A DNA stretch of 64,000 bases from Gekko japonicus. Lineage: Eukaryota. Positions 2,466 to 61,024 of this stretch are shown here, one piece after another. Under the pieces are notes generated by a model. The model saw only the letters and a program-made list of their open reading frames with translations, had not been told where the DNA came from and searched no databases. Position 1 is the first letter of the stretch. The number at the start of each line of letters is the position of its first letter. The stretch covers positions 536,873-600,872 of the forward strand of contig NW_015167083.1 of the NCBI RefSeq assembly GCF_001447785.1, written 5' to 3'. The position numbers and the translations under genes were made by a program.

Positions 2466-2877
2466 TTGCTGGCGCAGGGCTTAGTAAGGAGAGGTCCTGC
2501 TGAGATCCAAAATAAACACACCACACAACAATTTTGGAATAAAGAACAGGCCACAGCTTTTATTGAACAAGGAAAATTGGCGAAGCATGGGGGTGGATCC
2601 TGGAAAATCGAGCAACCCAACTGCCGCCTGATAACCACGTCCCTCAGCCCGCCTGCTGAGGGAAAACCCAGGAGTGACAAATACTACTGGTATCACAAGG
2701 GCGGCTGCCTCTGCGTGGTACCAATTTGACACCTGGGGTGAGCCTGGCACAGCCCTCGAGATGGGCCTACTGCGTATTGGCTCAAACCCCCAGACCCCTT
2801 AAGGGGGTACCCAAAAAGGGGGAGGTGGACACGCAGGGCCGTCTCCCCGAAAAGGATCCACCCCAGATGCGCAAAAA
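2466..2877 (-). repeat. Ngaro terminal repeat B2, unique poly(A)-signal segment, and C2
   Basis: Copy of B1/C1 with an extra ~120 bp (2501-2620) that carries a minus-strand AATAAA at ~2563 and a GT-rich tract downstream. Confidence 0.85.
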
Positions 2878-2937
2878 CTGCCAACTGTGATAATAACAAA
2901 CTTAGAGAAACTTTTAAACCCAGGGAGGGTGGGTGGG

Positions 2938-3135
2938 GATCCGATGAAAACCGCACTGCCATGCTTCACTGGCAGTGTTGCTTAAATCTCCCAGGCAGGC
3001 TCTACGTCATCACTACGTAGAGCCCGCCAAATTCAAGACCAATCAGCTTCCCCCCCCCAGCTGGCGTGGAGCCAGCCAACGCGGTTGTCCCAGTGTCACG
3101 CCTCTGCTGGCCATTAGACCAAAAAAAGGGGGGGG
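2938..3135 (-). repeat. Ngaro split direct repeat A2
   Basis: gatccgatgaaaaccgcactgcc...ccattagacc-aaaa-gggg matches 7230-7425. Confidence 0.9.
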
Positions 3136-3201
3136 AAGACCTCCTCCAGTCCTCCTTTGCTCACGCAGCAATCCGGCCTTTCAGGTAAGTCTCGGCCGTG
3201 T

Positions 3202-3497
3202 TTGCTGGCGCAGGGCTTAGTAAGGAGAGGTCCTGCCCGCCTGCCACCCGATAACCACGTCCCTCAGCCCGCCTGCTGAGGGAAAACCCAGGAGTGACAA
3301 ATACTACTGGTTTCACAAGGGCGGCTGGCTCTGTGTGGTACCAATTTGACACCTGAGGTGAGCCTGGCACAGCCCCCGAAATGGGCCTACTGCGTATTGG
3401 CTCAACCCCCCAGATCCCTTAAGGGGGTACCCAAAAAGGGGAAGGTGGACATGCAGGGCCGTCTCTCTGAAAAGGATCCACCCCAGATGCGCAAAAA
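3202..3497 (-). repeat. Ngaro internal repeat B1 plus C1
   Basis: 3241-3497 matches 2621-2877 (offset 620). 3202-3236 is identical to 2466-2500 (35 bp). Confidence 0.9.
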
Positions 3498-3548
3498 CCA
3501 CCACTGAGCAAAGGGAGGGAACCCCCCCCTTTGCTCCCGCCAAAGCTC

Positions 3549-4106
3549 CTAAGCCTGAAGCCAACGAAGCAGGGCATCTTGAATGCTGAACAACCATGTG
3601 TCCATTCCCCATTCTGATAGGTGAATCCCATCCCCCCTGTACAGAAACTCATGCCTAAAAGAAGGATGACAGATCCTCCTAAAGCCACGGCAATGCTTCC
3701 TGCATACTTGCTAACGTTTCGTTTTGCTAGGTCCACTCTCTCTGGGTTGATAGCTGCTCTCCAATCTTGACGTTCCAAGAGCTCTGACCAGAATAACCGG
3801 GTGTGAGGAAAGCGTGCAGATAGGATCTCAAGATCTGCTGCAATTGCATGATGTAATTCAGAACCCTTTTTGGCTGGAAATAATTCTCTCCAAGCTGGAT
3901 AATTAGGGCATCGGGTGGGCCGTGCACAAAAACCTGCTGAGCTACCACTTCCAAGAGGGAAGCCCAATGCATTCCCCTCTGGCCCACCCATGTAATTCGC
4001 AGGTGTTTTCCAAGGCCCACTGATTCCCCCCAGCCAGAGACAGCAGTGTACCAACCAGCCCAGTAGACAATACTGTGCCCTACAATCCAGACCTTTCTGA
4101 GCGGAC
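3549..4106 (-). pseudogene. SGNH/GDSL-type hydrolase ORF of the Ngaro element (two frameshifts)
   Basis: Block I VWIVGHSIVYWA, block II G (QRGMHW), block III LIIQLGEN, middle segment RFPHTRLFWSELL (ORF 3419-4054 frame). Block V LYRGDGIHLSEWG read manually at ~3645-3605, ending in TAG at 3551-3549. Confidence 0.85.
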
Positions 4107-4132
4107 CTGCATAGATGAATACAAGCAAAACA

Positions 4133-4597
4133 TTAAGCCAAATGTGGACGAATGTATGATCGAAAGGTAGCTGAGCGCCAGCGACCGATAGCCTGAATTT
4201 TGGAGGCCGGTAGGCCCAAGGTAGATACAGTGGTAGTGGCACCAGTCCGAAAGGAGTGAGTGCCATATTCTAAAGATGGCAGCCCCAGGTGCTCCAAGCA
4301 TTTTCGCAACACACTTGCAAACTGATATCTAGATAGGCAGCACCTGTTGGAATGAATGAAAAATGCACCCACGATAGGTGGCTGGATGGACATGTAATGG
4401 CGAACGCTTTTTACTGGGCAGGGGACCCCAGGAGGACCTTGAGCCAGAGTGATTAAGGTACCTTTGCCTTGCTGGTCAGTTTTGGAATGGCGTAGCACAA
4501 TGTGGAGTTTTTCCTTGCTGACCTTTATGTCTTTAAGTGAAAGCTGCAGATTGTCAGAACTGTGCCGGGAGGAAGCACAGATTTCCCACACAGCGCT
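4133..4597 (-). pseudogene. Tyrosine recombinase catalytic domain, N-terminally deleted
   Basis: SKTDQ (K), CPV, HSFRTGA (H-x-x-R), IGRWRS (W) and SYIR (Y): DIRS/Ngaro YR signature. Confidence 0.93.
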
Positions 4598-5451
4598 GAG
4601 GTGCCCCAATAGGGATTGCATCTCCCTCAGCATGCATTTTGTAGATGCCAGCATTTTCTGCAGGAATTTGCGAAGGGAAGAAAGTTTATCCTCAGGAAGT
4701 CTAGACATGCCCAATTCCGAATCTAGTAATATGCCCAAATATGTCAGCTGTGTTGTAGGACCCTCAGTTTTATCCTTTGCAAGGGGAATTCCTAATTAAT
4801 CTGCCAATGACTGAAAGGTAGCCAGGTAAAAGGCACACTCTGGGGAACCAGATGGACCAATAAACAGGAAATCATCTAAATAATGTGGGGTATTTGCTCT
4901 TCCTTTTGCTACAAATTCCAAAAAAGAACTAAAGGCCTCAAAAGTAGCAACGGCTACAGAGCATCCCATGGGCATGGCTTTATCCACGTACCATAGGCCA
5001 TCCAGCTTGAAACCCAGCAGGCAGAAATCAGCTGGGTGAACAGGTAATAAGCAGAAACCTGATTGGATGTCACATTTTGCAATGAGGGCACCAGGGCCAC
5101 AGGACTGGACTAAACAAACAGCCTGATCAAAAGATGCATACTTAACTGAACAGAGTTCTGGTGGAATAAAATCATTAACTGATGAAAGAGTATGAAAGAT
5201 TATGTATAAGGCGGAATTCCCCTGGGGCCTTCTTGAACCACCCCCAGTGATGAAACCCTGAGATTAATGAATGGAGGGGCTGAAAAAGGTCCTGCAATCC
5301 TGCCCTCGGCACATTCCTTTGCCACCTTCTTTCTGACCACCTCTGGTTGATCCCTCGCTGATTTAAGATTCCCACATACTGTGGTCAAATGTGGACCATC
5401 ATATTGGATCCTAAAACCTGACATGAAACTATCCTTCAAAAAGACTGCCAT
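4598..5451 (-). pseudogene. Ngaro reverse transcriptase; frameshifted, RNase H deleted
   Basis: Motifs GRIAGPF, FRLIHNLS, AKCDIQSGF.LLPVHP, DKAMPMGCS, HYLDDFLFIG, then thumb GILLDS...LREMQSLLGHL. Confidence 0.92.
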
Positions 5452-5545
5452 TTTTTAATTTGCATACAATGCAAGCAAAGGTTCCAGAGCCTGAAAGCGA
5501 ATTGGGGTGCGTGCCAAGGAAACAAGTGCATCCTTGTTAACTGTA

Positions 5546-6533
5546 TTATTTTGAACTGTTTGTAGTGTTGGAATTACCCAATCCTGCTTCCTTTTTCCCA
5601 CCGGCATTGGAAGAGGACCGGAATCCTCGAAAGGGCTGAGAACCACTGCGAGAGCATGACAGCCTGGGATGTGGGCCGAAACACGCATCACAATTATGAT
5701 CAAATTTGCATTTTGTGCGGCTACATTTTCCCTGATCGTACTCCCAGCACACTCTGCGGGGGCTTCCCATCTGAAACCAATCTTAGGCCTTGAATAAGCA
5801 GGCCTTGACTTTGCATGTGGACCCACTTTAACCAGCCAGATTTTATCATTAATGAGGTACCACCTGGCCACAGCGCTATAAGAGGCCCGTTTTTGAAAAG
5901 CCTCATCATATTCCATTGCTGTGGACTCATTGGCCATTGTGCGAGCCTTCAAAACATTTGCCATGTGATTGACCAAATGCCAGCCACGCTCAGGATATGA
6001 TGAAATCACCACCTCCATAAAGGCTGCATAGCCAGACATCCAATTTACGAAATTACGCTCCACTGCCATTTTAGAATTATTTTTTTCCCTGACAAATGAA
6101 TGCCCGGAGGGGGGTATTCTGCATTGCTAAAGGCCAGAGTAGCTCTGCTAGCATCTTGCAGTTCCGATCCCCATACCGCACCAGGACCTGCTCCCTCCCC
6201 TCTATGCTTCCAGGCCCAAGGTGGTAAACTAGGAACGTGTGCTCCTTTCCCCCAATAATCCCCCTTCGCATGTGTGGAATCCTCATCAGAGGCAGACTCA
6301 CCTGATGAGTCATTGCTGGCTTCTCCATGCTCCCGAGCTGACCATGACTTGCCCTTCCTGGAGGACATCTGTTTACGCTTTGGATGATTTTGGACATCCT
6401 CCTTGTCACTGGATGAGATGGACTCCACTGGAGAACGAGGCCTCTTAGGTCTGCTCTTACACCCTGGTGCGGTCTGCGTTGACTGTCCTTCCATCTTATC
6501 AAAACACTCAGAAAGGCACTCCAGTCTGCACAA
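5546..6533 (-). pseudogene. Ngaro ORF1 gag-like protein, frameshifted
   Basis: Successive ORFs 6045-6533, 5455-6069 and 5546-5770. C-terminal Cys/His finger CWEYDQGKCSRTKCKFDHNCDACFGPHPRLSC is typical of YR-retroelement gag. Lies immediately upstream of RT. Confidence 0.8.
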
Positions 6534-6594
6534 TGCCCATCAGAACAGTGGAACTATCGACTGCTGGTGTAGCAGCAGAAGCATAGCCCGGTGT

Positions 6595-6750
6595 CTTAGC
6601 CTCCAGCTCACCCGTCTCAGCTCAGGAAGGATTGCAGCAGAGCAAACCAATCCTTTCAGTAGCCAAATCGCTCAACCACAACCCTTTTACCAGTAGCTCA
6701 CCAAGTAGAATCTTTTTCTTACAAGACTCCACGGCTTAGAGGGAGCACTG
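6595..6750. mobile_element. Truncated hAT MITE fragment inside the Ngaro leader
   Basis: Homologous to the right part of 22558-22764, ending in the TIR gcttagagggagcactg. Confidence 0.75.
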
Positions 6751-7229
6751 ATTTCAGCTACCTTAAAATGATTAACAAAAGATAATTCCACCAATGAAAC
6801 ATAACAAGAAACCCTGACTCACCCCCAATGGAAATGCCTCAATGGTTTTTGCCAGCAGTTTCTGTGCACAGCCCCCCCTCTCGATGATCTCCCTTCCCAG
6901 CTCAGACCCGGCTGAGCTTCCCACTCCATGCAAACCCAGCAAAAAAGCTGCAGGAAAAATATGCTCAAACCAAAAACGGCCCCAGCCTGCGTTGCAAAGC
7001 CAGTCAACCAGCCAAAAAAGCCCCACTTCGCTGTGATAAAAGCGAAGGGGATCTACTTACCCTTGCACGAGGGCCACCAAAAGTTTTCCTGTGCTGCTGA
7101 TGCCTCAGAATGCTGAGCCAATCTGCTGCAGACCTCCGAGAGACCAGGAAGAGGAGGAGCAGCCGAGTCACACTGAGAGCAGCTGAATAGAAACTGAAAG
7201 CAAGCAGACGATCAGGAAGGGAAGTGATC

Positions 7230-7425
7230 GATCCAACGAAAACTGCACTGCCACGTTTCATTGGCAGCGCTGCTTAAATCTCCTGGGCAGGCTCTACATC
7301 ATCACTACATAGAGCCCACCCAAATTCAAGACCAATCAGCTCCCCCCCCCAAGCTGGCATAGAGCCAGCCAATGCGGTTGTCCCAGTTTCGCGCCTCTGC
7401 TGGCCATTAGACAAAAGGGGGGGGG
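7230..7425 (-). repeat. Ngaro split direct repeat A1 (promoter-like)
   Basis: Aligns by eye to 2938-3135. Contains CCAAT boxes and a ggctctac...gtagagcc-type palindrome. Confidence 0.9.
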
Positions 7426-7833: not shown

Positions 7834-7916
7834 AAGAAGAAGAAGAAGAAGAAGAAGAAGAAGAAGAAGAAGAAGAAGAAGAGGAGGAGGAGGAGGAGGA
7901 AGAGGAGGAGGAGGAG
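7834..7916. repeat. (GAA)n(GAG)n microsatellite, expanded SINE tail
   Basis: Direct trinucleotide run abutting the 3' end of a minus-strand SINE. Confidence 0.95.
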
Positions 7917-8155
7917 ATTGGATTTATACCCCGCCCTTCACTTGGAGTCTCAGAGCGGCTTACAAACTCCTTTCCCTTCCCCTCCCCACAACAGACACCC
8001 TGTGAGGTGGGTGGGGCTGAGAGAACTCTGACACAAACGGCTCTTTTTCAAGGACAGCTGTGCCAGAGCTTGTGACTGACCCAAGGTCACATCAGCAGGT
8101 GCAAGTGGTTCTCCCAGATTAGAGTTCGCACACTTAACCACTACACCAAACTGGC
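7916..8155 (-). mobile_element. Squam3-like (MIR/Ther1-derived, tRNA head, L2 tail) SINE
   Basis: Reverse complement of gccagtttggtgtagtggttaag...gggcggggtataaatccaatc; same family as 22201 and 49487. Confidence 0.85.
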
Positions 8156-12969: not shown

Positions 12970-13881
12970 AATGGAAAACTAGTGAAGGAGAATTCTTGAA
13001 ACTCTATTTCAGTGAGTATGTATGTACTGACAACTGGGGATAACAGTTAATATGTTGTAATATAGTAAATANNNNNNNNNNNNNNNNNNNNNNNNNNNNN
13101 NNNNNNNNNNNNNNNNNNNNNNNNNNNNNNNNNNNNNNNNNNNNNNNNNNNNNNNNNNNNNNNNNNNNNNNNNNNNNNNNNNNNNNNNNNNNNNNNNNNN
13201 NNNNNNNNNNNNNNNNNNNNNNNNNNNNNNNNNNNNNNNNNNNNNNNNNNNNNNNNNNNNNNNNNNNNNNNNNNNNNNNNNNNNNNNNNNNNNNNNNNNN
13301 NNNNNNNNNNNNNNNNNNNNNNNNNNNNNNNNNNNNNNNNNNNNNNNNNNNNNNNNNNNNNNNNNNNNNNNNNNNNNNNNNNNNNNNNNNNNNNNNNNNN
13401 NNNNNNNNNNNNNNNNNNNNNNNNNNNNNNNNNNNNNNNNNNNNNNNNNNNNNNNNNNNNNNNNNNNNNNNNNNNNNNNNNNNNNNNNNNNNNNNNNNNN
13501 NNNNNNNNNNNNNNNNNNNNNNNNNNNNNNNNNNNNNNNNNNNNNNNNNNNNNNNNNNNNNNNNNNNNNNNNNNNNNNNNNNNNNNNNNNNNNNNNNNNN
13601 NNNNNNNNNNNNNNNNNNNNNNNNNNNNNNNNNNNNNNNNNNNNNNNNNNNNNNNNNNNNNNNNNNNNNNNNNNNNNNNNNNNNNNNNNNNNNNNNNNNN
13701 NNNNNNNNNNNNNNNNNNNNNNNNNNNNNNNNNNNNNNNNNNNNNNNNNNNNNNNNNNNNNNNNNNNNNNNNNNNNNNNNNNNNNNNNNNNNNNNNNNNN
13801 NNNNNNNNNNNNNNNNNNNNNNNNNNNNNNNNNNNNNNNNNNNNNNNNNNNNNNNNNNNNNNNNNNNNGTTCACAGCTAAA

Positions 13882-15942: not shown

Positions 15943-18471
15943 TTTGTCATCATGGAAAACTGCAGCAGCTATTTTTATAAGTAGGGTGTATTGGAAACCA
16001 GAAATCCCTTTTCATGAAGGGGGGGGGGACCTTGCAGCAATTTTTTACACATACTATGCATAGTTTTTGTTATGCAGCTCATGCAAGTAGATCACTCACT
16101 CACGTATCACCCAGTTGAGATAATACATTTTATTAACCATCTCTAAGTAGGAGCATGACACCAATTAATTTAGCTAAGTAATGAATTGTTTGGTATCAAA
16201 ATTTTCACTAACTATGGAGCCGGTTCTGCCATTTGACCTACTTAATAACCAAAATGTAATTCTGTCCTATTTCCGTAGCTCTGCAAAATTGCAAGTGCTT
16301 TAACTAGTTGGAATAATTTACTGAGTAACCAGGTAGTGAGTCCAATGCTGAAAAAGACAATCATGTCTAAGTCAAAAGGCACTGAATGTGATTACAGAGA
16401 GTCTTGTATCGCCAAATGGATTTCTGATCTGGTCTTGTTAAACAGCATGTTAACCAAACATTAGATCATCCATACATTCTCCATTTGTTTGCATTTTGGT
16501 TACAGACTTGAAAGCCAATGACAGCACTATTCAAGCAAGAACATTGCTGCTCGTTATTTTTGGCTCACTTTGCAAGATTTCATTCCCCTTCTCTCATCTG
16601 TCTTTAACCAACACAAATAAAAAGACACGCTAATATTTATGTTCCACAATACCTCCCCCCAATACTGACCAAACTGAAAAAAAAGCCCAACTGCCCCCAT
16701 GTAGACAATTTATAGAGCTCAACAGATGTCCAAAACAGCTGACAGGACGTGAACAGTTTTAACAGTAACAAAGTAACAACAAGTGGAGCAAAAATTTTCC
16801 CTGCCGCTGTCTGTGCTCCGCCAGTGAGTTCAGGGAGTTAACAGCAAAACTGCCGCATATATTTAAACTTTGCGCTGAGGGTCATGTAAACATTCCTTTC
16901 CCAGACACTCTGCTAAGAATGTAGAATCTTCCTGACCCTGCTATGTCTTCCCTATAAGGTTTACCATAATGCTGTGACATAGCTACACTTTGTATCTGTC
17001 AAAGACAGGAAAAAATATGAGCAGAGATGCCACCTTGCCATTTAAGGAAACCAGCCTGCTTTTATCAGTGAAATCACCCCTTATCTGGAAAGCTTTTTCT
17101 TTTCATTATGTCAGCTATCCTTTTAATAAGTCACATATCCTTGTTTTTGAAAATTCCAAGCTATTTTTTTAAAATCCCCATATTTAAATATGAGGATTGT
17201 CATGAGAGTTACGTGGGAGCAGAAATGTCTCATAAGGATAGTAAGGAACATTCTGGGAAAACCAGTAAATTCAGCAGTAGCTTTGCATTGTCTGAACACG
17301 CCAAAGGCATTTGTTTTTTGGGTTTTTTTGTTTGTTTGTTTTGTTTCTTTGAGATTGGGAATAAGGGAAAGAAAATGAAATGGAAATTATGGTTTAAAAT
17401 TCCAGTCATTGTTTTGTTCCTGAAAAGATATGTCATTGTCGGGCACTTCATCCGTCAAGCTGTAGCCTCGCTGTAGAAGGCAATGGGCCTCTGGGAGATT
17501 TCATCCTGTAGGGGTGGGGGGGATTGTTTGGTTTTTTTCCCTCCTCACCCTTTCCAGGGTGCAGCAGGTGTGAAGTCATCACAACTCTACCATAGCAATA
17601 AAGACATACTATTGTCATCCAATTGCATGTTATTGGGGAAGTCACTGGTTTCAAGCTTTGTCCTTTCCCCAGGCAGGCTGCATGTCCCTGCCAGGTCTCT
17701 TTTAGAACAGACCACCAAAAAAAAGAAGAAGAAGAAGACATCAAACACTCAGCTGGATTCCAACCACATTCCACTCCTCTGTCCTCCCAGACTGGACCTG
17801 AAAAGCAAGTCCTCTCTTATTTCAGTTCTGACAAATGCTGAACAATGGGGTGGCTGTTGTCAAAGCCCTTTTCTTCCCCCCTTTTAAGAGCCATATGCAT
17901 TATCTCGGGAATCTCCATTCATATTAAGATAATGCACACTCACTCTTTCCTTGTTTAGATTACAGCTCAGTCTATCCCCAACCGCCTCTCATTTTCTTTT
18001 CTTGCCTGATAATCCGAGGCTTTACCTACTGAGCTACCCCAGAACTAAACAGGCGAAACAGAAAGATAATTGCAGTAAAATGAAGTACGGCAAAGCCCTA
18101 GGCCCAGATGCCTCGCCTTTTTCTTCCTGATGCTAAGCTACACATTTCGGTGGAAGGACCTTTACTGAATGCATCTTTGAATATAACCCTGGATCCAGGA
18201 AGATTTTGTTGTTGTTAAATAAAAGCTTCATCAAGATTATATTATTCCCATTCTAGAAGAGAAGACTGCCAACAATCAGCCTCTTTTTTTAAAAAAAAAC
18301 ACACCTATCTGCTTCATAAATTCTTATAGACTATCTTGCTTAGGAAGGATTCAGACAACTGTTTAGTTTTGATTGTGCAAACAATAGGAATCTCAGGGGG
18401 TTCCCAAGGAAAATATAGAGGTGACTAGTGAATTTTGGAGTTGGCTTAACTATAGTGAGGAGGAGGAGGAG

Positions 18472-18726
18472 GATTTATACCCCGCCCTTCACTTGGAGTC
18501 TCAGAGCGGCTTACAAACTCCTTTCCCTTCCCCTTCCCACAACAGACACCCTGTGAGGTAGGTGGGGCTGAGAGAACTCTGACAGAAATGGCTCTTTTTC
18601 AAGGACAGCTGTGCCAGAGCTCGTGACTGACCCAAGGTCACATCAGCAGGGGCAAGTGGAGGAGTGGGGAATCAAACCTGGTTCTCCCAGATTAGAGTCT
18701 GCACACTTAACCACTACACCAAACTG
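18472..18726 (-). mobile_element. Squam3-like SINE
   Basis: Near-identical to 7916-8155, with a (gga)n tail. Confidence 0.88.
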
Positions 18727-22200: not shown

Positions 22201-22480
22201 GGAGCCAGTTTGGTGTAGTGGTTAGGAGCACAGACTCTTATCTGGGAGAACCAGGTTTGATTCCCCACTCCTCCATGTGCAGCTGCTGGTGGGACCTTGG
22301 GTCAGTCACAAGTTATTTCAGAGCTGTTCTCTCAAGGGCAGTCCTTGAAAGAGCTCTCTTAGCACCACCTACCTCACAGGCAGTCTGTTGTGTGGAGGGG
22401 AAGGGAAAAGAACTGTAAGCCACTCTGAGACTTCTTCAGGTAGTGAAGGGTGGGGTATAAATCCAATCTCTTTTTCTTGT
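22201..22480 (+). mobile_element. Squam3-like SINE, full length
   Basis: A box tggtgtagtggttagg, B box ggtttgattccc, CORE, L2-type tail gggtggggtataaatccaatctc. Confidence 0.88.
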
Positions 22481-22557
22481 TTTTCATTGTCAATGGAAAA
22501 TTCACACACACACACACGTAGTTGGATCATACATACACACATGCACGCACACACAAC

Positions 22558-22764
22558 CAGTGTTCCCTCTAAGCTGAGTTAGTGTGAGCTAGCTCACAGT
22601 TTTTTTAGCCTCCAGCACATACATTTTTGTCTCAGCTCAGGAAGGGTGGCTCCAGAGCAAACTAATTTATGCAGTAGCCAAATCCCTCGCTCACAACTTT
22701 AATGCCAGTAGCTCACAAAGTAGAATTTTTGCTCACAAGACTCCGCAGCTTAGAGGGAGCATTG
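22558..22764. mobile_element. hAT MITE
   Basis: TIR cagtgttccctctaagctg / cagcttagagggagcattg; perfect 8-bp TSD cacacaac. Confidence 0.9.
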
Positions 22765-27474: not shown

Positions 27475-28617
27475 TCTCTCTATATAATAATTGTGTTTTG
27501 ATCATGGACTCTCCTGAACATTCTTCAAGCTTCCAAATCAGTTGGCTCCCTGATCTGTCACTCAGAAGCTGTCCCTATCCACTGGCTGTGTTGCCTGAGT
27601 CTTGCCTCCAATATTCTAAACAGTTTGCTGTTCCTCTCCCCCAATAGCCAGTCAGAACACAGAGGTTATTTGCATATGTGGCCTGATTGGCCTTTGCCTC
27701 TAACATTCTAAATAGTTTGCTGTTGCTGTTGGGAGTCAATGAGTGTGTCCTGAGGTAAAATACATATCCCAATTNNNNNNNNNNNNNNNNNNNNNNNNNN
27801 NNNNNNNNNNNNNNNNNNNNNNNNNNNNNNNNNNNNNNNNNNNNNNNNNNNNNNNNNNNNNNNNNNNNNNNNNNNNNNNNNNNNNNNNNNNNNNNNNNNN
27901 NNNNNNNNNNNNNNNNNNNNNNNNNNNNNNNNNNNNNNNNNNNNNNNNNNNNNNNNNNNNNNNNNNNNNNNNNNNNNNNNNNNNNNNNNNNNNNNNNNNN
28001 NNNNNNNNNNNNNNNNNNNNNNNNNNNNNNNNNNNNNNNNNNNNNNNNNNNNNNNNNNNNNNNNNNNNNNNNNNNNNNNNNNNNNNNNNNNNNNNNNNNN
28101 NNNNNNNNNNNNNNNNNNNNNNNNNNNNNNNNNNNNNNNNNNNNNNNNNNNNNNNNNNNNNNNNNNNNNNNNNNNNNNNNNNNNNNNNNNNNNNNNNNNN
28201 NNNNNNNNNNNNNNNNNNNNNNNNNNNNNNNNNNNNNNNNNNNNNNNNNNNNNNNNNNNNNNNNNNNNNNNNNNNNNNNNNNNNNNNNNNNNNNNNNNNN
28301 NNNNNNNNNNNNNNNNNNNNNNNNNNNNNNNNNNNTTCTACCTTAGCTGCCACTGCATAACCCCAAATCAACATAAGTCAGGGGTGGAGGGAACCATACC
28401 TGTTACCATGAGGATGTCCTCCCATACTACCCACTTGAGGCAGCAAAATGACTTGAGACAGCCTTGCCTTATAGCTAAGCAGAAGAAAAGAAACATGGCT
28501 TACCTCCCTCTATTTTCCCCTTCCCTCTGCCGCCACACCAGCCACAGTCGGGACACTCACCTGGAGCTTCCTTCTAGAGCTCGTTGTATTTCTTCCCACA
28601 ACGGGCCATACCCCTAG
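27475..28617 (+). mobile_element. Non-autonomous Helitron H2 (spans an N-gap)
   Basis: A|TCTCTCTATATAATAA 5' end; 27505-27774 is the reverse complement of H1 25720-26010; 3' gctcgttgt...acaacgggc hairpin then CTAG|T at 28617. Confidence 0.8.
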
Positions 28618-30591: not shown

Positions 30592-32706
30592 GGATTTTTT
30601 GGATGGCATTTCCATTTTAGACCCTTTCCAGTCCAGCTTTTGCCCGGGCCACGGGACAGAGACAGCACCGGTCGCCCTCACAGACGATCTCCAGATGCAT
30701 CTGGATCATGGTGGATCAGCAGTGCTGTTGTTGTTGGACCTGTCGGCAGTGTTTGACACAGTCAACCATCATCTACTGATCCACCACCTCACCAACACTA
30801 GAATCCAGGAGCCTGCCTTGCAATGGCTTGCCTCCTTCCTCCAAGGTTGGGGGGGAAAGGGTGGCACTGGGTGAACAGCTATCCCAAAGGCACCCACTGG
30901 ATTGTGGTGTGCCTCAAGGGGCGGTGCTGTCCCTGATGTTATTTAACATATACATGTGCCTCCTTGCCCAGATTGCATGGAGACATGGGCTGGGATGTCA
31001 CCAGTATGCAGATGACACCTAGCTCTATTTGCTGTTGGGCAGCTGGTCTGACTCTAAAGTGGAAGATCCGACCAGGTGTTACAAGATGTGGCTGGATGGC
31101 TTAGGCTGAGCTGACTGAAATTGAATCCGATGAAGATGGAGGTCCTGTGCCTGAGTCAGGGCAGACGGAGGGTAGGGATCCCACTCCCGACCTTCGTTGG
31201 GGCTCTGTTGGTGCCAATGCTGGATGTTAGGAGCTTGGGAGTGCTCTTGGATGCCTCCTTAACAATGGAGGCCCAGGTAGCAGCCACTGCTAAGTCTGCC
31301 TTTTACCATCTTTGGCTGATCAGGCAGTTGGTTCCCTTCCTTGAATGCAATGACTTGGCAACAATGATCCACACAATGGTCACCTTGAGATTGGACTACT
31401 GTAATGCTCTCTATATGGGGCTGCCCTTGTTGCAAATCTGGAAGCTACAGCTAGTGGAAAATGTGGCAGTCAGGCTTTTAATGGGCCTCCCAATGCTGAA
31501 GGCATTGCACTGGCTACCGATAGCATATCGAATTCGCTTCAAGGTGCTGGTTCTTACCTTTAAAGCCCTTTACGGTCAGGGACCTATATACCTGAGGGAC
31601 TTTCTCCACATGTTTCCCAGAGAGCACTGTGATCAGGGTCCCAACACTGATTGGCCTTCCCTGGACCCAAGGATGCCAGGCTGGCTATAACCAGGGCCAG
31701 GGCTTTCTCGGTGGCAGCTCCTCTCTGGTGGAATGAGCTCCCAGAAGAGATTAGGGCCCTGCAGGATCTCATGCAGTTCTGCAGGGCCTGCAAGATGGAG
31801 ATCTTCCACCAGGCCTTCAATTAGGAGCCACCCCCGATATAGAACCCTGTTCCCTGAAGCCACCAGAACAGCTTGTGCCGGCTGCACAAAGGTTAGATCT
31901 ATGGGCTGACCACTAGGATGGAATACTGAAGGTCGACCACCATCATTAATAACCTATTAGTGTCATTACTGTTAGCACCTTTTAATGTTGGAATGTTTTA
32001 TATGATTTTAGGGCTATTTAATTGCTTACTTGTGTGTTTTTTATTGTGCTGGCTCATCTGGTTACCATGGTTACCCACACACTGGAAGCTGGAAACGCAG
32101 TCCAGATTCAGGTTAAACAACAGGGCCAAAGGTCGGATAGCCAGGGAATCAGTCCAAGGTTGCAGGAGTCAGGAACAAGGAACGGTTGCTACACACCAGA
32201 AGCAGATCTGAGCATGCAGAGTTGCTACTGCGCTGAGGCAGGTGTGTGGAGTGTTTATAAGCAGGTCCTTCCTTCCCTGGGGTTGAGTCTGCAAAGGCTT
32301 ACAGCTCTTCCCTCTGCCGGAGCTGGAGTCTGGCACTCCTTCTTCACTCCTGCATAGTCAGCCTCTGGCGCGCCCTACGTCTGGGGCACTCAGGAGAACT
32401 AGGCGGGGAGTCTGGCCTTGGGGTGTCTTCAACTGGGGGTGCTGGGCCAGGCTCAGGATCGGCTTCTCCTTCTGGCTGCACCTCCTATGCAGCTGCTGGG
32501 GACTCTTCCTCCTTAGGTGCTGTTGAGGGTTCTTCTTCTGGGCTGACTCCAGAGGAGGCTGGGCTGCTCCCTGCCTCTTCCTCATCTGAGGAGTAGTCAG
32601 CCTCAGCAGAGCCAGTACCCATGACATTTATTCTTTTATGTAAGCCACCCTGAGCTGGCCTCGGCTGGGAGGGCGGGGTATAAATCTGATAATTAATAAA
32701 ATAAAA
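30592..32706 (+). mobile_element. L2 LINE, 5'-truncated, RT pseudogene
   Basis: LDPFQS.F.PGHGTETA, LLDLSAVFDTV, GVPQGAVLS, HQYADDT, LDYCNAL, LHWLPI..RIRFKVL; tail gggcggggtataaat...aataaaataaaa. Confidence 0.93.
32045..32626 (-). mobile_element. Solo LTR (Gypsy-like) nested in the L2 3' UTR
   Basis: TG...CA termini; 5-bp TSD tttat (32040-32044 and 32627-32631); minus-strand TATA (cttataaa). Confidence 0.8.
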
Positions 32707-41493: not shown

Positions 41494-41706
41494 ATAAGAA
41501 GAGGAGAAGAAGAGATTGGATTTATACCCTGTCCTTCACTACCCAAAGGAGTCTCAGAGTGGCTTACAATCCCTTTCCCTCCCCACCACAGACCACAGGT
41601 GAGGTAGGTGGGGCTGAGAGAACTCTCTTGAGAACTGCCCTTGAGAAAACAGCTCTGAAGAACTTATGACTGACCCAAGGTCACACCAGCAGCTGCATGT
41701 GGAGGA
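41494..41706 (-). mobile_element. Squam3-like SINE, 5'-truncated
   Basis: gattggatttataccc...gtctcagagtggcttac...cccaaggtcaca. Confidence 0.85.
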
Positions 41707-44298: not shown

Positions 44299-47200
44299 TC
44301 CTATACACATAATTCCCTTACATATTGGCCATTTCCAGCTCTCCCATTGGCTATGCAGTATGCTTCATCAGCCATTGGCCCATCAACCACCACTCAAGAG
44401 TACTCATGTGTCATTGGCTGGGTGCTGGGTCCACTCTCCCCTGCCCACTGCCAGCCTGGACACTCACAGAATTAACTATCAAAACGGCTGTCTCTCCTGA
44501 CGAAGATACTTCTCCTGCTTGGCTCCTGTGGGACTAACTTTTCCCTCAGTGGCTGTTGCTAGGCAACCAAGCTTGGTTCTGTCAGTAAAAAGGCAAAGGA
44601 AGAAAACCCTTTCCAGGTCTTTGTAGGGAATTCATTGGGGCCAGTCCTGACTAGGGTTACCAGCTCCAGGTTGGGAAATTCCTGGATATTTTGTAATGAA
44701 GTCTACAGAAGCCAGAGTTTGGGGAGGGGAGAGGCCTCAGCTGAATAGAGCTCACTCCCCAAAGCAGTTATTTTCTCCAGGGTTCAGTTCAATTGTGATA
44801 CCCGGTGATCTTCAGGCTCCACCTGGAGGTTGGCTACCCTAGGCAGTTAGCACTTCAGAGCAGGGTTTGCTAGACCCAGGTTCTTGCTGTGGAAGTTAAG
44901 TGGGTGATTTTGGACCAGTCACAGACTTTCAGCCTAACATACCTCACAGGGTTGTTGTGCAGATCAAAAAGGGGAGAGGAGAATGATGTAAGCTGCTTTG
45001 GTCTCCACTGTTCCTCCTGGGGAACCATTGCTGCCAATCTCCAGGTGAGGGCTGGAGATCACTCAGAATTAAAACTACTCTCCAGATGGTAGAGATCAGT
45101 TTCCCTGGAGAAAACAGCTGCTTTGCAGGGTGGACTCTGAGTCATTATACCCTGCTAAGGTCACCTCCCTCCTGCTTGGGTCCCCACTGTGGAGAAAGAC
45201 TAGTTTTCCCACAGAGAGGCTGCAGTTATGGGAGGGGGGGGGGAGAGATGGAAAGCTGAAGTCAGAGGGGCAGATAAAGTTAGGTTAATGGTTGGCTGAG
45301 AAGGAGATACGGTTGCGACCTCCAGGTTGGGGAATTCATGGAGATTTGAGGGATGGAGCCTGGAGATGTTGGGGCTTGTGAAGGGGTGGGACCTCAGACA
45401 GGTACAATGTCATAGAGTCCACCCTCCAAACCAGCCATTTCCTTCTGGGGAACCATTGTTGCCAGTCTCCAGAGGAGGGCTGGAGATCACTCAGAATTAC
45501 AACTGCTATTCATATGGCAGAGATCAGTTTCCCTGGAGAAAATGGTAAGCTCTGTGTCATTATACCCTGCTGAGGTTGCCACAGCAAATTGACGCTGAGT
45601 GCCCAAAGCCACNNNNNNNNNNNNNNNNNNNNNNNNNNNNNNNNNNNNNNNNNNNNNNNNNNNNNNNNNNNNNNNNNNNNTTATTTATATCTTGCCCTCC
45701 CTGCCAGGCAGGTTCAGGGTGGCTTACAACATATATATAAATATATTAAAACACTGAGATACATTAAAACAGTAATCAAGTTAAAACAACCCATGTGCAA
45801 ACATGTGCTAGCAAACGTAATACTAATAAATGGTGGCAGTGTTGTCTCAGCATCTAGATAGTCAGATTACCACCCCAGTCTGAGTTCTTGCCAGGCTATA
45901 AGGTATTGAGTTGGCACTGATGTTAGGGAGCTGATGTTAGGGGGGCAGGGCCTCGATGTTAAGAGGGGGCCCCTAATCAAAGGCCTGGTGGAAGAGCTCT
46001 ATTTTACAGGCCCTGTGGAACTGTAAGAGGTCCCGCAGGGCCCTGATGTCACTCGGGAGCTCATTCCACCAGTAAGGTGGCACCACAGAAAAGGCCTTGG
46101 CCCTCGTCACTGCTACCTGGCTTCGTTAGGTCCTGGGAGGGCCAGACAATTTTGGGACCCGATCTTAGTGCTCTCTGGGGAACATGTGGGGAGAGGTGGT
46201 CCCTTAGGTAAGTAGGTCCCTGACCATATAGGGCTTTAAAGCTAAAAAACAGCACCTTGAACCGAATCCAGTATGCTATAGGCAGCCAGTGCAGTGCTTT
46301 TAGTGTGGGCTGGATGTTTTCTGCACAGGAAGACACAACAACAGCCTCGCTGCTGTATTCTGCACCACCTGCAGCGTCTTGATTTGGTACAAGGGTAGCC
46401 CCGTGTAGAGAGCATTGCAGTAATCCAGTCTCAAGGTGACCATTGCGTGGATCACTGTTTCCAGGTCATTGCATTCAAGGAAGGGAACCAACTGCTTAAT
46501 CAGCCGCAGATGGTAAAAGGCAGATTTCGCAGTGGCTGCTACCTGGGCCTCCATCGTTAAAGAGGCATCTAGGAGCACTCCTAACCTCCGACACAGGCAT
46601 GAATGGTTCCCGATCAAAGGTCAGGAGAGGGATCCCTAACCTTGGTCCACTCCGACTCAGGCATAGGACCTCTGTCTTCATTGGATTCAATTTCAGTCGA
46701 CTCAGTTTAAGCAAACCAGCCACAGCTTTCAACGCCAGGTCCAGATCTCCTGGACTAGAGTCTGACTGGCTGTCCAACAACAGATAGAGCTGTGTGTCAT
46801 CCACATATTGGTGACAACCCAGTCCATGCCTCTGTGCAAGGGGGCACATGTAGAATAGCATCGGGGAAAGCACTGCTCCTTGGGGCACTCCACAAATTAG
46901 TGGGTGCCTTCCAGATAGCTGCTCCCCCACTGCCACCCTTTGTCCCTGACCCTGAAGGAACGAGGAGAGCCATTGCAAGGCAAACCACTGAATCCCGGTG
47001 CCGGCAAGGCAGTGAATCAGTAGTTGATGGTCGACCACTTTGAACGCTGCCGACAGGTCTAACAATAACAACACTGCCATACTACCTTGATCCAGGTGCC
47101 TCTGGAGGCTGTCTGTGAGGGCGACCAGGACCATCTCTGTCCCATGGCCTGGTCAGAAACTGGACTGGAAGGGATCTAATATGGAGGTGTCATCAAAAAA

Positions 47201-49486: not shown

Positions 49487-49770
49487 CCAGTCTGGTGTAG
49501 TGGTTAAGTGCGCAAACTCTAATCTGGGAGAACCGGGTTTGATTCCCCACTCCTCCACTCGCAGCTGCTGGATGACCTTGGGCAAGCCATAACTCTGGCA
49601 CAGCTGTTCTTGAAAAAGAGCAGTTTCTGTCAAGAGTTCTCTCAGCCCCACCTACCCCACAGGGTGTCAGTTGTGGGGAGGGGAAGGGAAAGGAGTTTGT
49701 AAGCCGCTCTGAGACACCTTTGGGTAGTGAAGGGCAGGGCATAAATCCAATCTCTTCTTCTTCTTCTTCT
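49487..49770 (+). mobile_element. Squam3-like SINE, full length
   Basis: A/B boxes, CORE, L2 tail, (ctt)n end. Confidence 0.88.
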
Positions 49771-52736: not shown

Positions 52737-52954
52737 CACTGTTCCCTCTAAGCTTAGCTGAGTTGGTGTGAGCTAGCTCACAGGTTCTTAGCCTCTGGCT
52801 CACACATTTTTGTCTTAGCTCAGGAATGATGGTTCCAGAGAAAACCAATTAATGCAGTAGCCAAATCACCTGCCTGCACACAACAACGTTAATGCCTGTA
52901 GCTCACAAAGTACAATTCTTACTCACAGGACTGCATAGCTTAGAGGGAGTATTG
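52737..52954. mobile_element. hAT MITE, same family as 22558
   Basis: cactgttccctctaagct / agcttagagggagtattg termini; body aligns with 22558-22764. Confidence 0.8.
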
Positions 52955-54766: not shown

Positions 54767-54895
54767 AAGAGCCAGTTTGGTGTAGTGGTCAAGTGCACGG
54801 ACTCTAATCTGGGAGAACCAGGTTTGATTCCCCACTCCTCCACTTGCACCTGGCTGGATGACCTTGGGCAAGCCATAGTTCTGATAAGGCCATAA
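54767..54895 (+). mobile_element. Squam3-like SINE 5' half
   Basis: agagccagtttggtgtagtggtcaag...ggtttgattcccc. Confidence 0.8.
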
Positions 54896-59611: not shown

Positions 59612-61024
59612 AAACTCCATCAATTCTACTTATCCATGGTTCCAAATGATAAAGGTATCATCTACATACCGGAACCAGACTGTTGGTTTGTGTGGTGCAG
59701 ATTCTAAAGCTGTTTTTTCAAAATGCTCCATGTAAAAGTTTGCTATAACTGGGCTGAGAGGGCTTCCCATGGCAACGCCATCTACCTGTTCATAGAATTC
59801 ATTATCCCATTGGAAGTAACTGGTTGTCAAACAATGGTGGAATAAAGCTGTTATGTCATCTGGAAAAAATTGATTAACAAGCATGAGTGTGTCTTTTACC
59901 AGAAACTTGGTAAAAAGAGATACCACATCAAAACTGATGAGTATGTCCTGTGGGTTGAGTTTCAGAGAACTGATATTGTTGATGAAATGTGTTGAATCTT
60001 TGATGTATGTTGTGGTTTTTCCTATGTGGTAGGTAGATGATACCTTTATCATTTGGAACCATGGAGATGTAGAATTGATGGAGTTTTTAGACCACCTCAA
60101 CAACATCCACCCTAACATACAATTCACCATGGAAAAAGAAGTCAAGGGTAAACTCCCATTTCTAGATATCATGGTCATCAGCAAAACTAACCTTCAATTA
60201 GGTCACAAGGTCTACAGAAAACCAACTCACATGGACCACTATTTGCATAAAAACTACAATCACCACCCTTGGCAAAAAAGAGGCATAATCAAAACATTAG
60301 TAGACCGTGCAAGATAGATATGTGAACTGCACTTTCTCAATGATGAACTAAGTCATCTAAACCATGCTCTTCAAGCAAATGGCTATTCCAAGAATGAAAT
60401 CAGAAGAGTGAGTAAACTAAAGGTAAAACAAACAACTGAGGAATAACAGTGTCCCACAGGAAAAGTGTTTTTGCCATATATCAAAGGAATCACTGATCAG
60501 ATGGGAAAACTTATGAAAAAACACAACCCAGAAACAGTATTCAGACCCACCAGAAAAATGCAACAGATGCTACGATTGGCAAAAGACAGAAGAGACCCCT
60601 TCACTTCTGCAGGAGTATACCACATACCATGCAGTTGTAGACAAGTTTACATCGGGACCACACAGCATAGCATTCGGACAAGAATAAAATAACATGAAAA
60701 ACACTGCAGACTTGGCCACCCTGAAAAATCAGCAGTGGCTGAACATAGCCTAACTCAAACAGGACANNNNNNNNNNNNNNNNNNNNNNNNNNNNNNNNNN
60801 NNNNNNNNNNNNNNNNNNNNNNNNNNNNNNNNNNNNNNNNNNNNNNNNNNNNNNNNNNNNNNNNNNNNNNNNNNNNNNNNNNNNNNNNNNNNNNNNNNNN
60901 NNNNNNNNNNNNNNNNNNNNNNNNNNNNNNNNNTCAGGTTCTACAATGCCAAAACCATGGCCACACATCCCAGAAAATCTACAGCAACTAATGAACTCTG
61001 GCCATGAAAGCCTTCGACAACATA
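59612..61024 (+). mobile_element. Penelope-like element, Poseidon type, with inverted 5' segment
   Basis: Minus-strand 59612-60028: SFDVVSLFT, GVAMGSPLSP..AN.YME, WFRYVDDTF. Plus-strand 60029-60766: HPNIQFTME, LPFLD, VYRKPTH, LPYIKG, GVYHIPCSC.QVYIGTT (GIY-YIG). After the gap, terminus ggccatgaaagccttcgacaa as in lizard Penelope pLTRs. Confidence 0.92.

What the first reader, a model, noticed from the sequence alone, without database searches (positions are those of the whole stretch)
2466..7425. Ngaro YR-retrotransposon carrying an SGNH hydrolase in a squamate (gecko-like) genome
Seen: split direct repeats, gag zinc finger, RT, YR, and a fourth ORF with SGNH blocks GHS, G, GEN and DGIH reconstructed across two frameshifts. 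Established: Ngaro elements have split direct repeats, and some animal Ngaro elements (fish, amphibian) encode an accessory SGNH hydrolase of unknown function; related esterases occur in ORF1 of some CR1/L2/RTE-X LINEs. Inference: this is a hydrolase-bearing Ngaro lineage in lizards. The catalytic Ser and the D-x-x-H residues are retained, which suggests the active family encoded a working lipid/acyl esterase, possibly for membrane or RNP targeting. I cannot tell whether this lineage has already been catalogued.
Basis: partly seen in the sequence, partly recalled or inferred. Interest (0 to 1): 0.75.

Follow-up and report, generated by a model that had tools for sequence, protein, structure and literature searches.

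The report
Dead lizard Ngaro retrotransposon with esterase
This is a broken copy of a known type of jumping gene, already described in frogs, whose extra fat-cleaving enzyme appears to be made by splicing it onto the front of the element's structural protein.

Summary
Window 2466-7424 (minus strand) is an Ngaro-type retrotransposon: split direct repeats A1/B1/A2/B2, gag with a Cys-His cluster, RT, tyrosine recombinase (YR) and a fourth SGNH ORF running through three frames. The copy is dead. Named relatives are from lizards (Sphaerodactylus, Podarcis, Zootoca). The pol relatives end just after RNase H, with no methyltransferase, so Ngaro fits better than PAT or DIRS. SGNH-bearing Ngaro is published for Xenopus, so the kind is known.

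What I add is inferred, not shown with RNA. The element's only perfect sense-strand splice donor (in gag, 6302) and an acceptor just after the YR stop (4107) are in phase. They would give a basic Gag-N-terminus/esterase fusion, and homologous gene models have the same join. The closest solved sequence is the ZfL2-1 LINE esterase, and 96 of 117 homologues keep all five catalytic residues. Gecko host and novelty against Dfam/Repbase were not testable.

The parts
7213..7424 (-). Split direct repeat A1 (5' end of element)
   Evidence: K2P to A2 0.114 over the local alignment, 0.10 without CpG columns
6302..6494 (-). Gag N-terminal region from ATG 6494: 64 codons, 13 Lys/Arg, 14 Ser; inferred exon ending at a phase-1 donor
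6296..6304 (-). Consensus splice donor CAG|GTGAGT (exon ends 6302); the only perfect MAG|GTRAGT on the element's sense strand
   Evidence: 1 found, shuffle mean 0.097; one is also present on the antisense strand
5782..6075 (-). Conserved gag core (frameshifted from the N-terminal part near 6085)
   Evidence: BLASTP to gag-pol P0017, pairwise E 1e-6, 23%; P0023 E 0.004
5654..5749 (-). Gag Cys-His cluster C-x7-C-x4-C-x3-H-x-C-x2-C-x3-H-x4-C
   Evidence: read directly; weak Pfam zf-CCCH
4598..5553 (-). Reverse transcriptase, broken (stops at about 5455 and 4796, frameshifts at about 5190-5236), truncated by deletion
4595..4598 (-). Deletion junction joining RT in frame to mid-YR; RT tail, RNase H and YR N-terminus missing (at least 654 nt)
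   Evidence: 218 pol residues follow this point in P0002 and P0004
4133..4594 (-). C-terminal catalytic part of tyrosine recombinase (H-x-x-R, GRW, Tyr kept; box I Arg not recognisable at the junction)
4107..4132 (-). Pyrimidine-rich splice acceptor ending CAG at 4107, just after the YR stop, in phase with donor 6302
   Evidence: 14 of 19 pyrimidines, among the top 17 of 178 YAG sites by a crude count
3549..4106 (-). SGNH hydrolase ORF with two frameshifts; S, G, N, D, H all present
3507..3540 (-). Stem-loop with a purine run just before B1; 11 nt are complementary to the start of A1/A2
   Evidence: -29.3 kcal/mol for 3500-3555; no shuffle control
3202..3506 (-). Split direct repeat B1 (3237-3506) plus 35-nt end piece
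   Evidence: K2P to B2 0.063, about 0.05 without CpG
3136..3201 (-). 66-nt spacer between B1 and A2, with no copy elsewhere in the window
2921..3135 (-). Split direct repeat A2
2466..2887 (-). Split direct repeat B2, with 116 nt (2501-2616) absent from B1 that hold the only sense-strand AATAAA (2564) and a GT-rich tract

Best explanation
A dead, internally deleted copy of a squamate Ngaro-like YR retrotransposon of the hydrolase-bearing type known from Xenopus. SHOWN: anatomy, domain identities, lesions, MT-less relatives, SGNH fold of an intact homologue. ESTABLISHED MODEL for the group (not tested here): transcription from A1 into B2, reverse transcription, end repair through the internal repeats, and YR integration of a circle without target duplication. 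INFERRED (about 0.75): the hydrolase is made from a spliced RNA joining the phase-1 donor in gag (6302) to the acceptor after YR (4107), giving a short basic Gag N-terminus fused to the esterase. INFERRED BY ANALOGY (about 0.5): as in ZfL2-1 ORF1p, the basic part binds RNA or Gag and the slow esterase tethers the particle to anionic membranes and releases it by acyl hydrolysis; an accessory function, probably not essential for transposition.
For: Repeats and ORFs. No MT: in 19 of 25 pol relatives the RNase H end motif was found and the protein stops 28-80 aa later (30 aa in four of the five closest); no Dam hit in the 17 of 25 scanned. RT tree: window groups 100/100 with Podarcis, Zootoca and two unnamed proteins. 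Splicing: single perfect sense donor, in phase with the acceptor; N-termini of SGNH proteins P0040 and P0041 align with residues 1-257 of the Zootoca gag-pol model P0006 (E 2e-11, 6e-14) and stop exactly where the esterase starts; 10 of 25 clade members with enough upstream sequence have 8 or more Lys/Arg just before the join, against 11 of 320 pol windows; Gly at -14..-9 from the Ser in 70 of 107 proteins against 37 of 107 ten residues further up. Enzyme: 96 of 117 gap-free single-domain homologues keep S-G-N-D-H; block V D+H, which the query lacked, is kept in 102 of 118; best PDB sequence hit is 4C1B (E 6e-12, next 9e-5); the Ser228 equivalent is S in 119 of 138 and the His191 equivalent is H in 93, Q in 43.
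Against: No RNA data. The homologous fusions are database gene models and may be ab initio. Only 2 of 90 long N-termini matched a gag-pol protein in my small set of 25, and 60 of 150 hits have under 60 aa upstream. The acceptor is not outstanding (13 others score as well or better on the same criteria), a perfect donor also occurs antisense, and the window's own exon has 7 Lys/Arg, just under my cut-off of 8. The SGNH frame is open 54 codons upstream to an ATG at 4266. The window has Gln at the His191 position. In fold searches 4C1B ranked 48th (it is domain-swapped) and cellular SGNH enzymes ranked first. ZfL2-1 ORF1p is dispensable in HeLa cells and binds liposomes without its active site. 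No labelled reference tree.
Confidence: 0.72

Rival explanations
1. Same Ngaro element, but the hydrolase is a free-standing ORF4 translated from its own ATG (4266, overlapping YR) or by read-through or frameshift from YR; the splice sites are incidental.
For: Frame open from 4269 with an ATG at 4266. The Xenopus paper says all ORFs overlap and never mentions splicing. Eight homologue models carry YR-like sequence upstream of SGNH.
Against: The 54 upstream codons are not conserved: most tblastn hits start at 4092-4146. Models with different upstream parts (gag-like, YR-like, host-like) join at about the same point, as expected of a strong acceptor. Donor phase and position match P0040/P0041.
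Confidence: 0.15
2. The hydrolase acts on the host rather than on the particle, for example deacylating a restriction factor, lipid signal or palmitoylated protein, or it is a non-catalytic binding module like Oskar's OSK domain.
For: SGNH enzymes are promiscuous, and Schneider et al. list these options. Oskar OSK matches the model at Z 17.3. All 25 gap-free domains of the multi-domain homologues lack the full catalytic set, so the fold can persist without catalysis.
Against: Catalytic residues are kept in 96 of 117 single-domain homologues, which argues against a purely non-catalytic role. Fusion to a basic Gag piece suggests association with the particle (inference).
Confidence: 0.25
3. The element is PAT-like or DIRS-like rather than Ngaro.
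For: PAT and VIPER also have split direct repeats. The region where an MT would lie is deleted in this copy. No labelled tree was made.
Against: DIRS has inverted repeats plus an ICR and none was found. DIRS and PAT encode an MT, whereas the closest pol relatives end 30 aa after RNase H. The hydrolase ORF is reported for Ngaro.
Confidence: 0.04
4. The SGNH ORF is a host gene piece captured by this one copy or family and evolving neutrally.
For: Host-gene-like proteins with the same domain exist among the hits.
Against: The window domain groups with single-domain, element-like proteins (19-row group, SH-aLRT 92, with Sphaerodactylus), not with the two host-like clades. YR- and RT-linked SGNH occurs in several parts of the tree. 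The same arrangement is published for Xenopus.
Confidence: 0.03

Closest known systems
Xenopus tropicalis Ngaro-like DIRS-53_XT and DIRS-54_XT (10.1101/2021.08.05.455354; parts 1-3 of 4 read)
   Same: A1-ORFs-B1-A2-B2 repeats (DIRS-53_XT); gag, RT/RH, YR, then an SGNH ORF; no MT.
   Different: Squamate host; longer B repeat (about 305/420 nt against 152); spacers between B1/A2 and A2/B2; this copy is dead. The paper does not mention splicing. No sequence comparison with these families was possible.
ZfL2-1 ORF1p esterase (PDB 4C1B; PMC3905857, passages read)
   Same: Best solved-structure hit by sequence (E 6e-12); S-G-N-D-H; Ser228 equivalent kept; basic motif upstream of the esterase.
   Different: A LINE, where the esterase is part of unspliced ORF1 with a coiled coil. 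Here it lies after YR and would be joined to Gag by splicing. His191 is Gln in the window and in 43 of 138 homologues.
Bdelloid Vesta LTR-retrotransposon GDSL ORF3 (PMC5408684, passages read)
   Same: Esterase in a 3', env-like position; the authors note that ORF3s are typically expressed from spliced messages.
   Different: Integrase-based LTR elements; the paper treats the LINE esterases as independently captured from these; I did not compare sequences.
Sphaerodactylus townsendi LOC125437778; Podarcis LOC144325210/LOC144325502; Zootoca LOC132591759 (uncharacterised gene models)
   Same: Nearest named SGNH (60% over 72 aa) and pol (52-53% over about 230 aa) relatives.
   Different: Different families (40-48% divergent); annotated as uncharacterised host genes.

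Membership tests
Ngaro-like (order DIRS) | Split direct repeats A1-[ORFs]-B1-A2-B2 | tested here: met
   with spacers and a 116-nt B1/B2 difference
Ngaro-like (order DIRS) | Tyrosine recombinase instead of DDE integrase | tested here: met
   (C-terminal part only)
Ngaro-like (order DIRS) | gag and RT ORFs upstream of YR, same strand | tested here: met
Ngaro-like (order DIRS) | RNase H after RT | tested here: inconclusive
   Deleted in this copy; present in closest relatives
Ngaro-like (order DIRS) | No methyltransferase domain | tested here: met
   Met on relatives only: pol ends 28-80 aa after the RH motif in 19 of 25, motif not found in 6; no Dam hit in 17 scanned. The region is deleted in the copy itself.
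Ngaro-like (order DIRS) | RT/RH and YR group with reference Ngaro elements | not testable with these tools
   No labelled DIRS/PAT/Ngaro/VIPER sequences were available; the tree has only search hits
Hydrolase-bearing Ngaro (Xenopus type) | SGNH ORF after YR and before B1 | tested here: met
DIRS-like | Inverted terminal repeats with ICR | tested here: not met
   Only short inverted matches (21-26 nt, 73-83%) were found
PAT-like | Split direct repeats plus MT domain | tested here: not met
   Repeats yes; MT absent from closest relatives
SGNH hydrolase | Blocks I, II, III, V with S, G, N, D-x-x-H | tested here: met
   Window motifs and homologue tallies
SGNH hydrolase | SGNH alpha/beta fold | tested here: met
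   On intact homologue P0029, not the window: pLDDT 95.9; best Z 20.0, rmsd 2.3, 172 aligned
SGNH hydrolase | Ester hydrolysis | not testable with these tools
   Needs an assay
Transposon-encoded esterases (ZfL2-1 type) | Transposon-specific His191 and Ser228 | tested here: inconclusive
   Ser kept (window; 119 of 138); His in 93 of 138, Gln in 43 and in the window

The most novel reading that the evidence does not exclude
Animal Ngaro elements express their esterase as a spliced Gag-N/esterase fusion, arriving at the basic-motif-plus-esterase layout of LINE ORF1p by a different route and from the same transposon esterase lineage. The strong acceptor in front of the domain has let host genes capture it at least twice: a matrin/ZNF638-like family with tandem catalytically dead repeats, and a cold-shock-domain family that often keeps the active site. 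I found none of this in the papers searched.
Probability: 0.35. Interest if true: 0.65.

Novelty: new member of a known kind. Interest (0 to 1): 0.4.

Why it matters
The role of the Ngaro hydrolase is stated to be unknown in the papers read. A defined splice junction says which protein to express and test, and links it to the one transposon esterase with biochemistry (ZfL2-1). It would make directly testable whether unrelated retroelements (LINE, LTR, YR) recruit the same enzyme for membrane targeting. The locus itself is an ordinary decayed insertion; extending the host range to lizards is a modest gain.

Tried and rejected
Pfam on the three window SGNH pieces: no hit at E<=10. Word-index search with the Sphaerodactylus protein found only itself; the HMMER search found 1545 proteins at E<=0.001, of which I could use the best 150. 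Cluster look-ups for organism names could not be made, so the hosts of P0027-P0175 are unnamed and my 'element-like' and 'host-like' labels rest on domain content. Alignment A1 misplaced the third piece and was dropped. The Atlas gave mostly unnamed clusters for block I-III, with one GDSL cluster at 0.90 (17% of members). Fold searches confirm the fold but do not single out the LINE esterase. No second copy of the element in the window, so no dN/dS or copy comparison. No target-site duplication or shared junction seen at the ends (by eye). Rfam: 0 matches in the window. No host gene found: 53 of 55 flanking ORFs of 100 aa or more were scanned (two simple-repeat ORFs left out), giving three RT hits and one GIY-YIG; short exons would be missed. 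I did not convert repeat divergence into an age, for lack of a sourced rate (one search gave none). Literature: Ngaro+SGNH gave 1 paper, Ngaro+gecko 0, Ngaro+lizard 14 listed, none about squamate Ngaro by title or abstract start, Ngaro/spliced/esterase nothing relevant among 25 listed of 1,439, domestication terms nothing relevant among 7. [quoted passage not shown] Supplements were not read (closed for the bioRxiv paper, whose ORF table could bear on the ATG question).
Full report
1. Observation. The element lies on the minus strand from 7424 to 2466. A1 (7213-7424) matches A2 (2921-3135) and B1 (3237-3506) matches B2 (2617-2887); a 35-nt end piece is identical after B1 and at the 3' end. This is the A1-[ORFs]-B1-A2-B2 order given for Ngaro in 10.1101/2021.08.05.455354, PMC3783388 and PMC8547959. 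Divergence is K2P 0.114 for A and 0.063 for B, mostly transitions, so the copy is not recent. There are no long inverted repeats.

2. Coding parts. Gag starts at ATG 6494; its core resembles gag-pol P0017 (pairwise E 1e-6), and a Cys-His cluster lies at 5654-5749. RT is supported by Pfam (E 9e-5) and by tblastn of 25 relatives. At about 4597 RT is joined in frame to the middle of YR. In P0002 and P0004, 218 more pol residues follow that point, so at least 654 nt plus the YR N-terminus are gone. The YR remnant is 41% identical to P0074 over 145 aa. Gag, RT and the hydrolase all carry stops or frameshifts. The copy cannot move on its own.

3. The fourth ORF. The window pieces alone hit no Pfam family. 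Block I-III found one protein, Sphaerodactylus townsendi LOC125437778 (E 8e-17). A profile of it and two window pieces found 1545 proteins at E<=0.001; the best 150 were returned. These align to the window in frames -2, -1, -3, confirming two frameshifts. Of 60 chosen for alignment A3, 49 hit Lipase_GDSL_2. A model of intact homologue P0029 (pLDDT 95.9) has the SGNH fold (best Z 20.0, rmsd 2.3, 172 aligned). By sequence the best PDB hit is the ZfL2-1 LINE esterase 4C1B (E 6e-12; next 9e-5); by fold it ranks 48th, behind cellular enzymes, which its domain-swapped crystal form may explain. Of 138 single-domain homologues, 117 had no gap at the five catalytic columns and 96 of those keep S-G-N-D-H. 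Block V, which the query did not carry intact, keeps D and H in 102 of 118. PMC3905857 names His191 and Ser228 as specific to transposon esterases: the Ser is kept in 119 of 138; the His column is H in 93 and Q in 43, including the window.

4. Family. Published criteria (passages): DIRS has inverted repeats and an MT, PAT has split repeats and an MT, Ngaro has split repeats, no MT and sometimes a hydrolase. The MT region is deleted here, so I tested relatives. In 19 of 25 the RNase H end motif was found and the protein ends 28-80 aa later; in 6 it was not found. None of 17 scanned hit Dam. An RT tree of 24 rows (P0016 and P0021 left out as partial) groups the window 100/100 with Podarcis, Zootoca and two unnamed proteins. 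It has no labelled references, so phylogenetic membership is untested. A squamate host is likely from these neighbours; gecko is plausible but rests on one hit and on my recall that the SINE at 7899-8155 is gecko-like.

5. How the hydrolase is probably expressed (inference). The sense strand of the element holds one perfect MAG|GTRAGT donor, at 6302 in gag, after a 64-codon basic, Ser-rich stretch (shuffle mean 0.097; one also occurs antisense). A pyrimidine-rich acceptor ends at 4107, just after the YR stop. Both are phase 1, so splicing gives Gag-N, a junction Gly, then the hydrolase in frame. Gene models of relatives show the same layout: the N-termini of P0040 and P0041 align with residues 1-257 of the Zootoca gag-pol model P0006 and stop where the esterase begins. 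In the clade around the window, 25 of 41 proteins have 25 or more upstream residues and 10 of these are strongly basic there, against 11 of 320 pol windows; two of the ten are YR- or host-derived. Gly, the residue expected at a phase-1 join, lies 9-14 residues before the Ser in 70 of 107 proteins, against 37 of 107 ten residues further up. Against this: no RNA evidence; the models may be ab initio; only 2 of 90 long N-termini matched my small gag-pol set; the acceptor is only among the top 17 of 178 YAG sites; the window's exon falls just under my basic cut-off; and the frame is open back to an ATG at 4266. These tests were chosen after seeing the data. I put the spliced fusion at about 0.75.

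6. What it does (analogy). ZfL2-1 ORF1p has an arginine-rich motif before a slow esterase that binds anionic phospholipids; its authors favour membrane targeting with regulated release, but the protein is dispensable in HeLa cells. A spliced Gag-N/esterase would have the same layout. Bdelloid LTR elements carry GDSL ORF3s in a similar 3' position. I give the membrane-targeting role about 0.5; action on a host substrate is the main rival.

7. Side result. Twelve of the 150 hits have 2-6 SGNH domains, and none of their 25 gap-free domains keeps all five residues. In a quick tree of 174 of 176 domains, 22 form a clade (SH-aLRT 100) sorted by repeat position, in proteins with a Zn finger and RS-rich N-terminus that I recall as matrin/ZNF638-like; 23 rows form a second clade (100) in or with cold-shock-domain proteins, several with intact active sites. 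Both look like host genes that share this domain. The tree is unrooted, so direction of transfer is not shown, and their organisms could not be looked up.

8. Prior knowledge. SGNH-bearing Ngaro is published for Xenopus (parts 1-3 of 4 read; no mention of splicing). Searches for Ngaro with gecko (0 papers) or lizard (14 listed) showed no description of a squamate family, and none of splicing or domestication. The original Ngaro papers, Dfam and Repbase were not seen. Other papers were read as passages only: PMC6681497, PMC4350176, PMC9004415, PMC7192593, PMC3783388, PMC3905857, PMC5408684, PMC8547959, PMC6050309, PMC3266345.

9. Verdict. A real, dead member of a known kind in a host group where I found no published description. 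The spliced fusion and the possible domestications are the leads worth following. Interest 0.4.

Noticed in passing
window 6594-6750: One end of a dispersed non-coding repeat (72-79% identical to 22605-22764 and 52786-52949) sits inside the element between A1 and gag; it looks like a truncated non-autonomous DNA transposon (recalled, not tested).
   Followed up: partly
window 2501-2616 and 3136-3201: B2 has 116 nt with the only sense AATAAA that B1 lacks, and a unique 66-nt spacer separates B1 from A2. Simple end-repair models do not explain either; may be copy-specific deletion/insertion or a family trait.
   Followed up: partly
window 3507-3540: Strong hairpin with a purine run directly before B1, complementary to the first 11 nt of A1/A2; could be a priming tract or an end-pairing signal (speculation).
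   Followed up: partly
window 7055-7063: A second donor-like site (AGG|GTAAGT, seen, not matched by my strict pattern) in the 5' untranslated part; a possible 5' intron ending just before gag ATG 6494.
   Followed up: no
P0027, P0028, P0030, P0031, P0064, P0091, P0094: Large proteins with 2-6 tandem, catalytically dead Ngaro-type SGNH domains; those inspected (P0027, P0064) have a Zn-finger/RS-rich N-terminus recalled as matrin/ZNF638-like. Possible domesticated gene family.
   Followed up: partly
P0146, P0147, P0149, P0151, P0159, P0034, P0038: Cold-shock-domain (CSDE1-like) proteins and relatives carrying an Ngaro-type SGNH domain, intact in P0146, P0147, P0149 and P0159; Atlas clusters of 78 and 51 members. 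Possible second domestication.
   Followed up: partly
P0033, P0057, P0058: Host-like N-termini joined to a single element-like SGNH domain at the usual join point; may be gene models or transcripts splicing into an inserted copy.
   Followed up: no
window 7899-8155, 18457-18726, 22204-22485, 41496-41706, 49487-49769, 54769-54883: At least six copies of a 270-nt SINE-like repeat (74-88% identical), one just upstream of the element; recalled as gecko-type.
   Followed up: no
window 30596-31832 / 45965-47200, 59633-60193, 63674-64000: Other retroelement remains: two related RT-bearing fragments (76% over 1.2 kb), a third RT, and a GIY-YIG ORF (Penelope-like by inference).
   Followed up: no
window 13072-13868, 27775-28335, 45613-45680, 60767-60933: Four assembly gaps (1,593 N); none touches the element.
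   Followed up: yes
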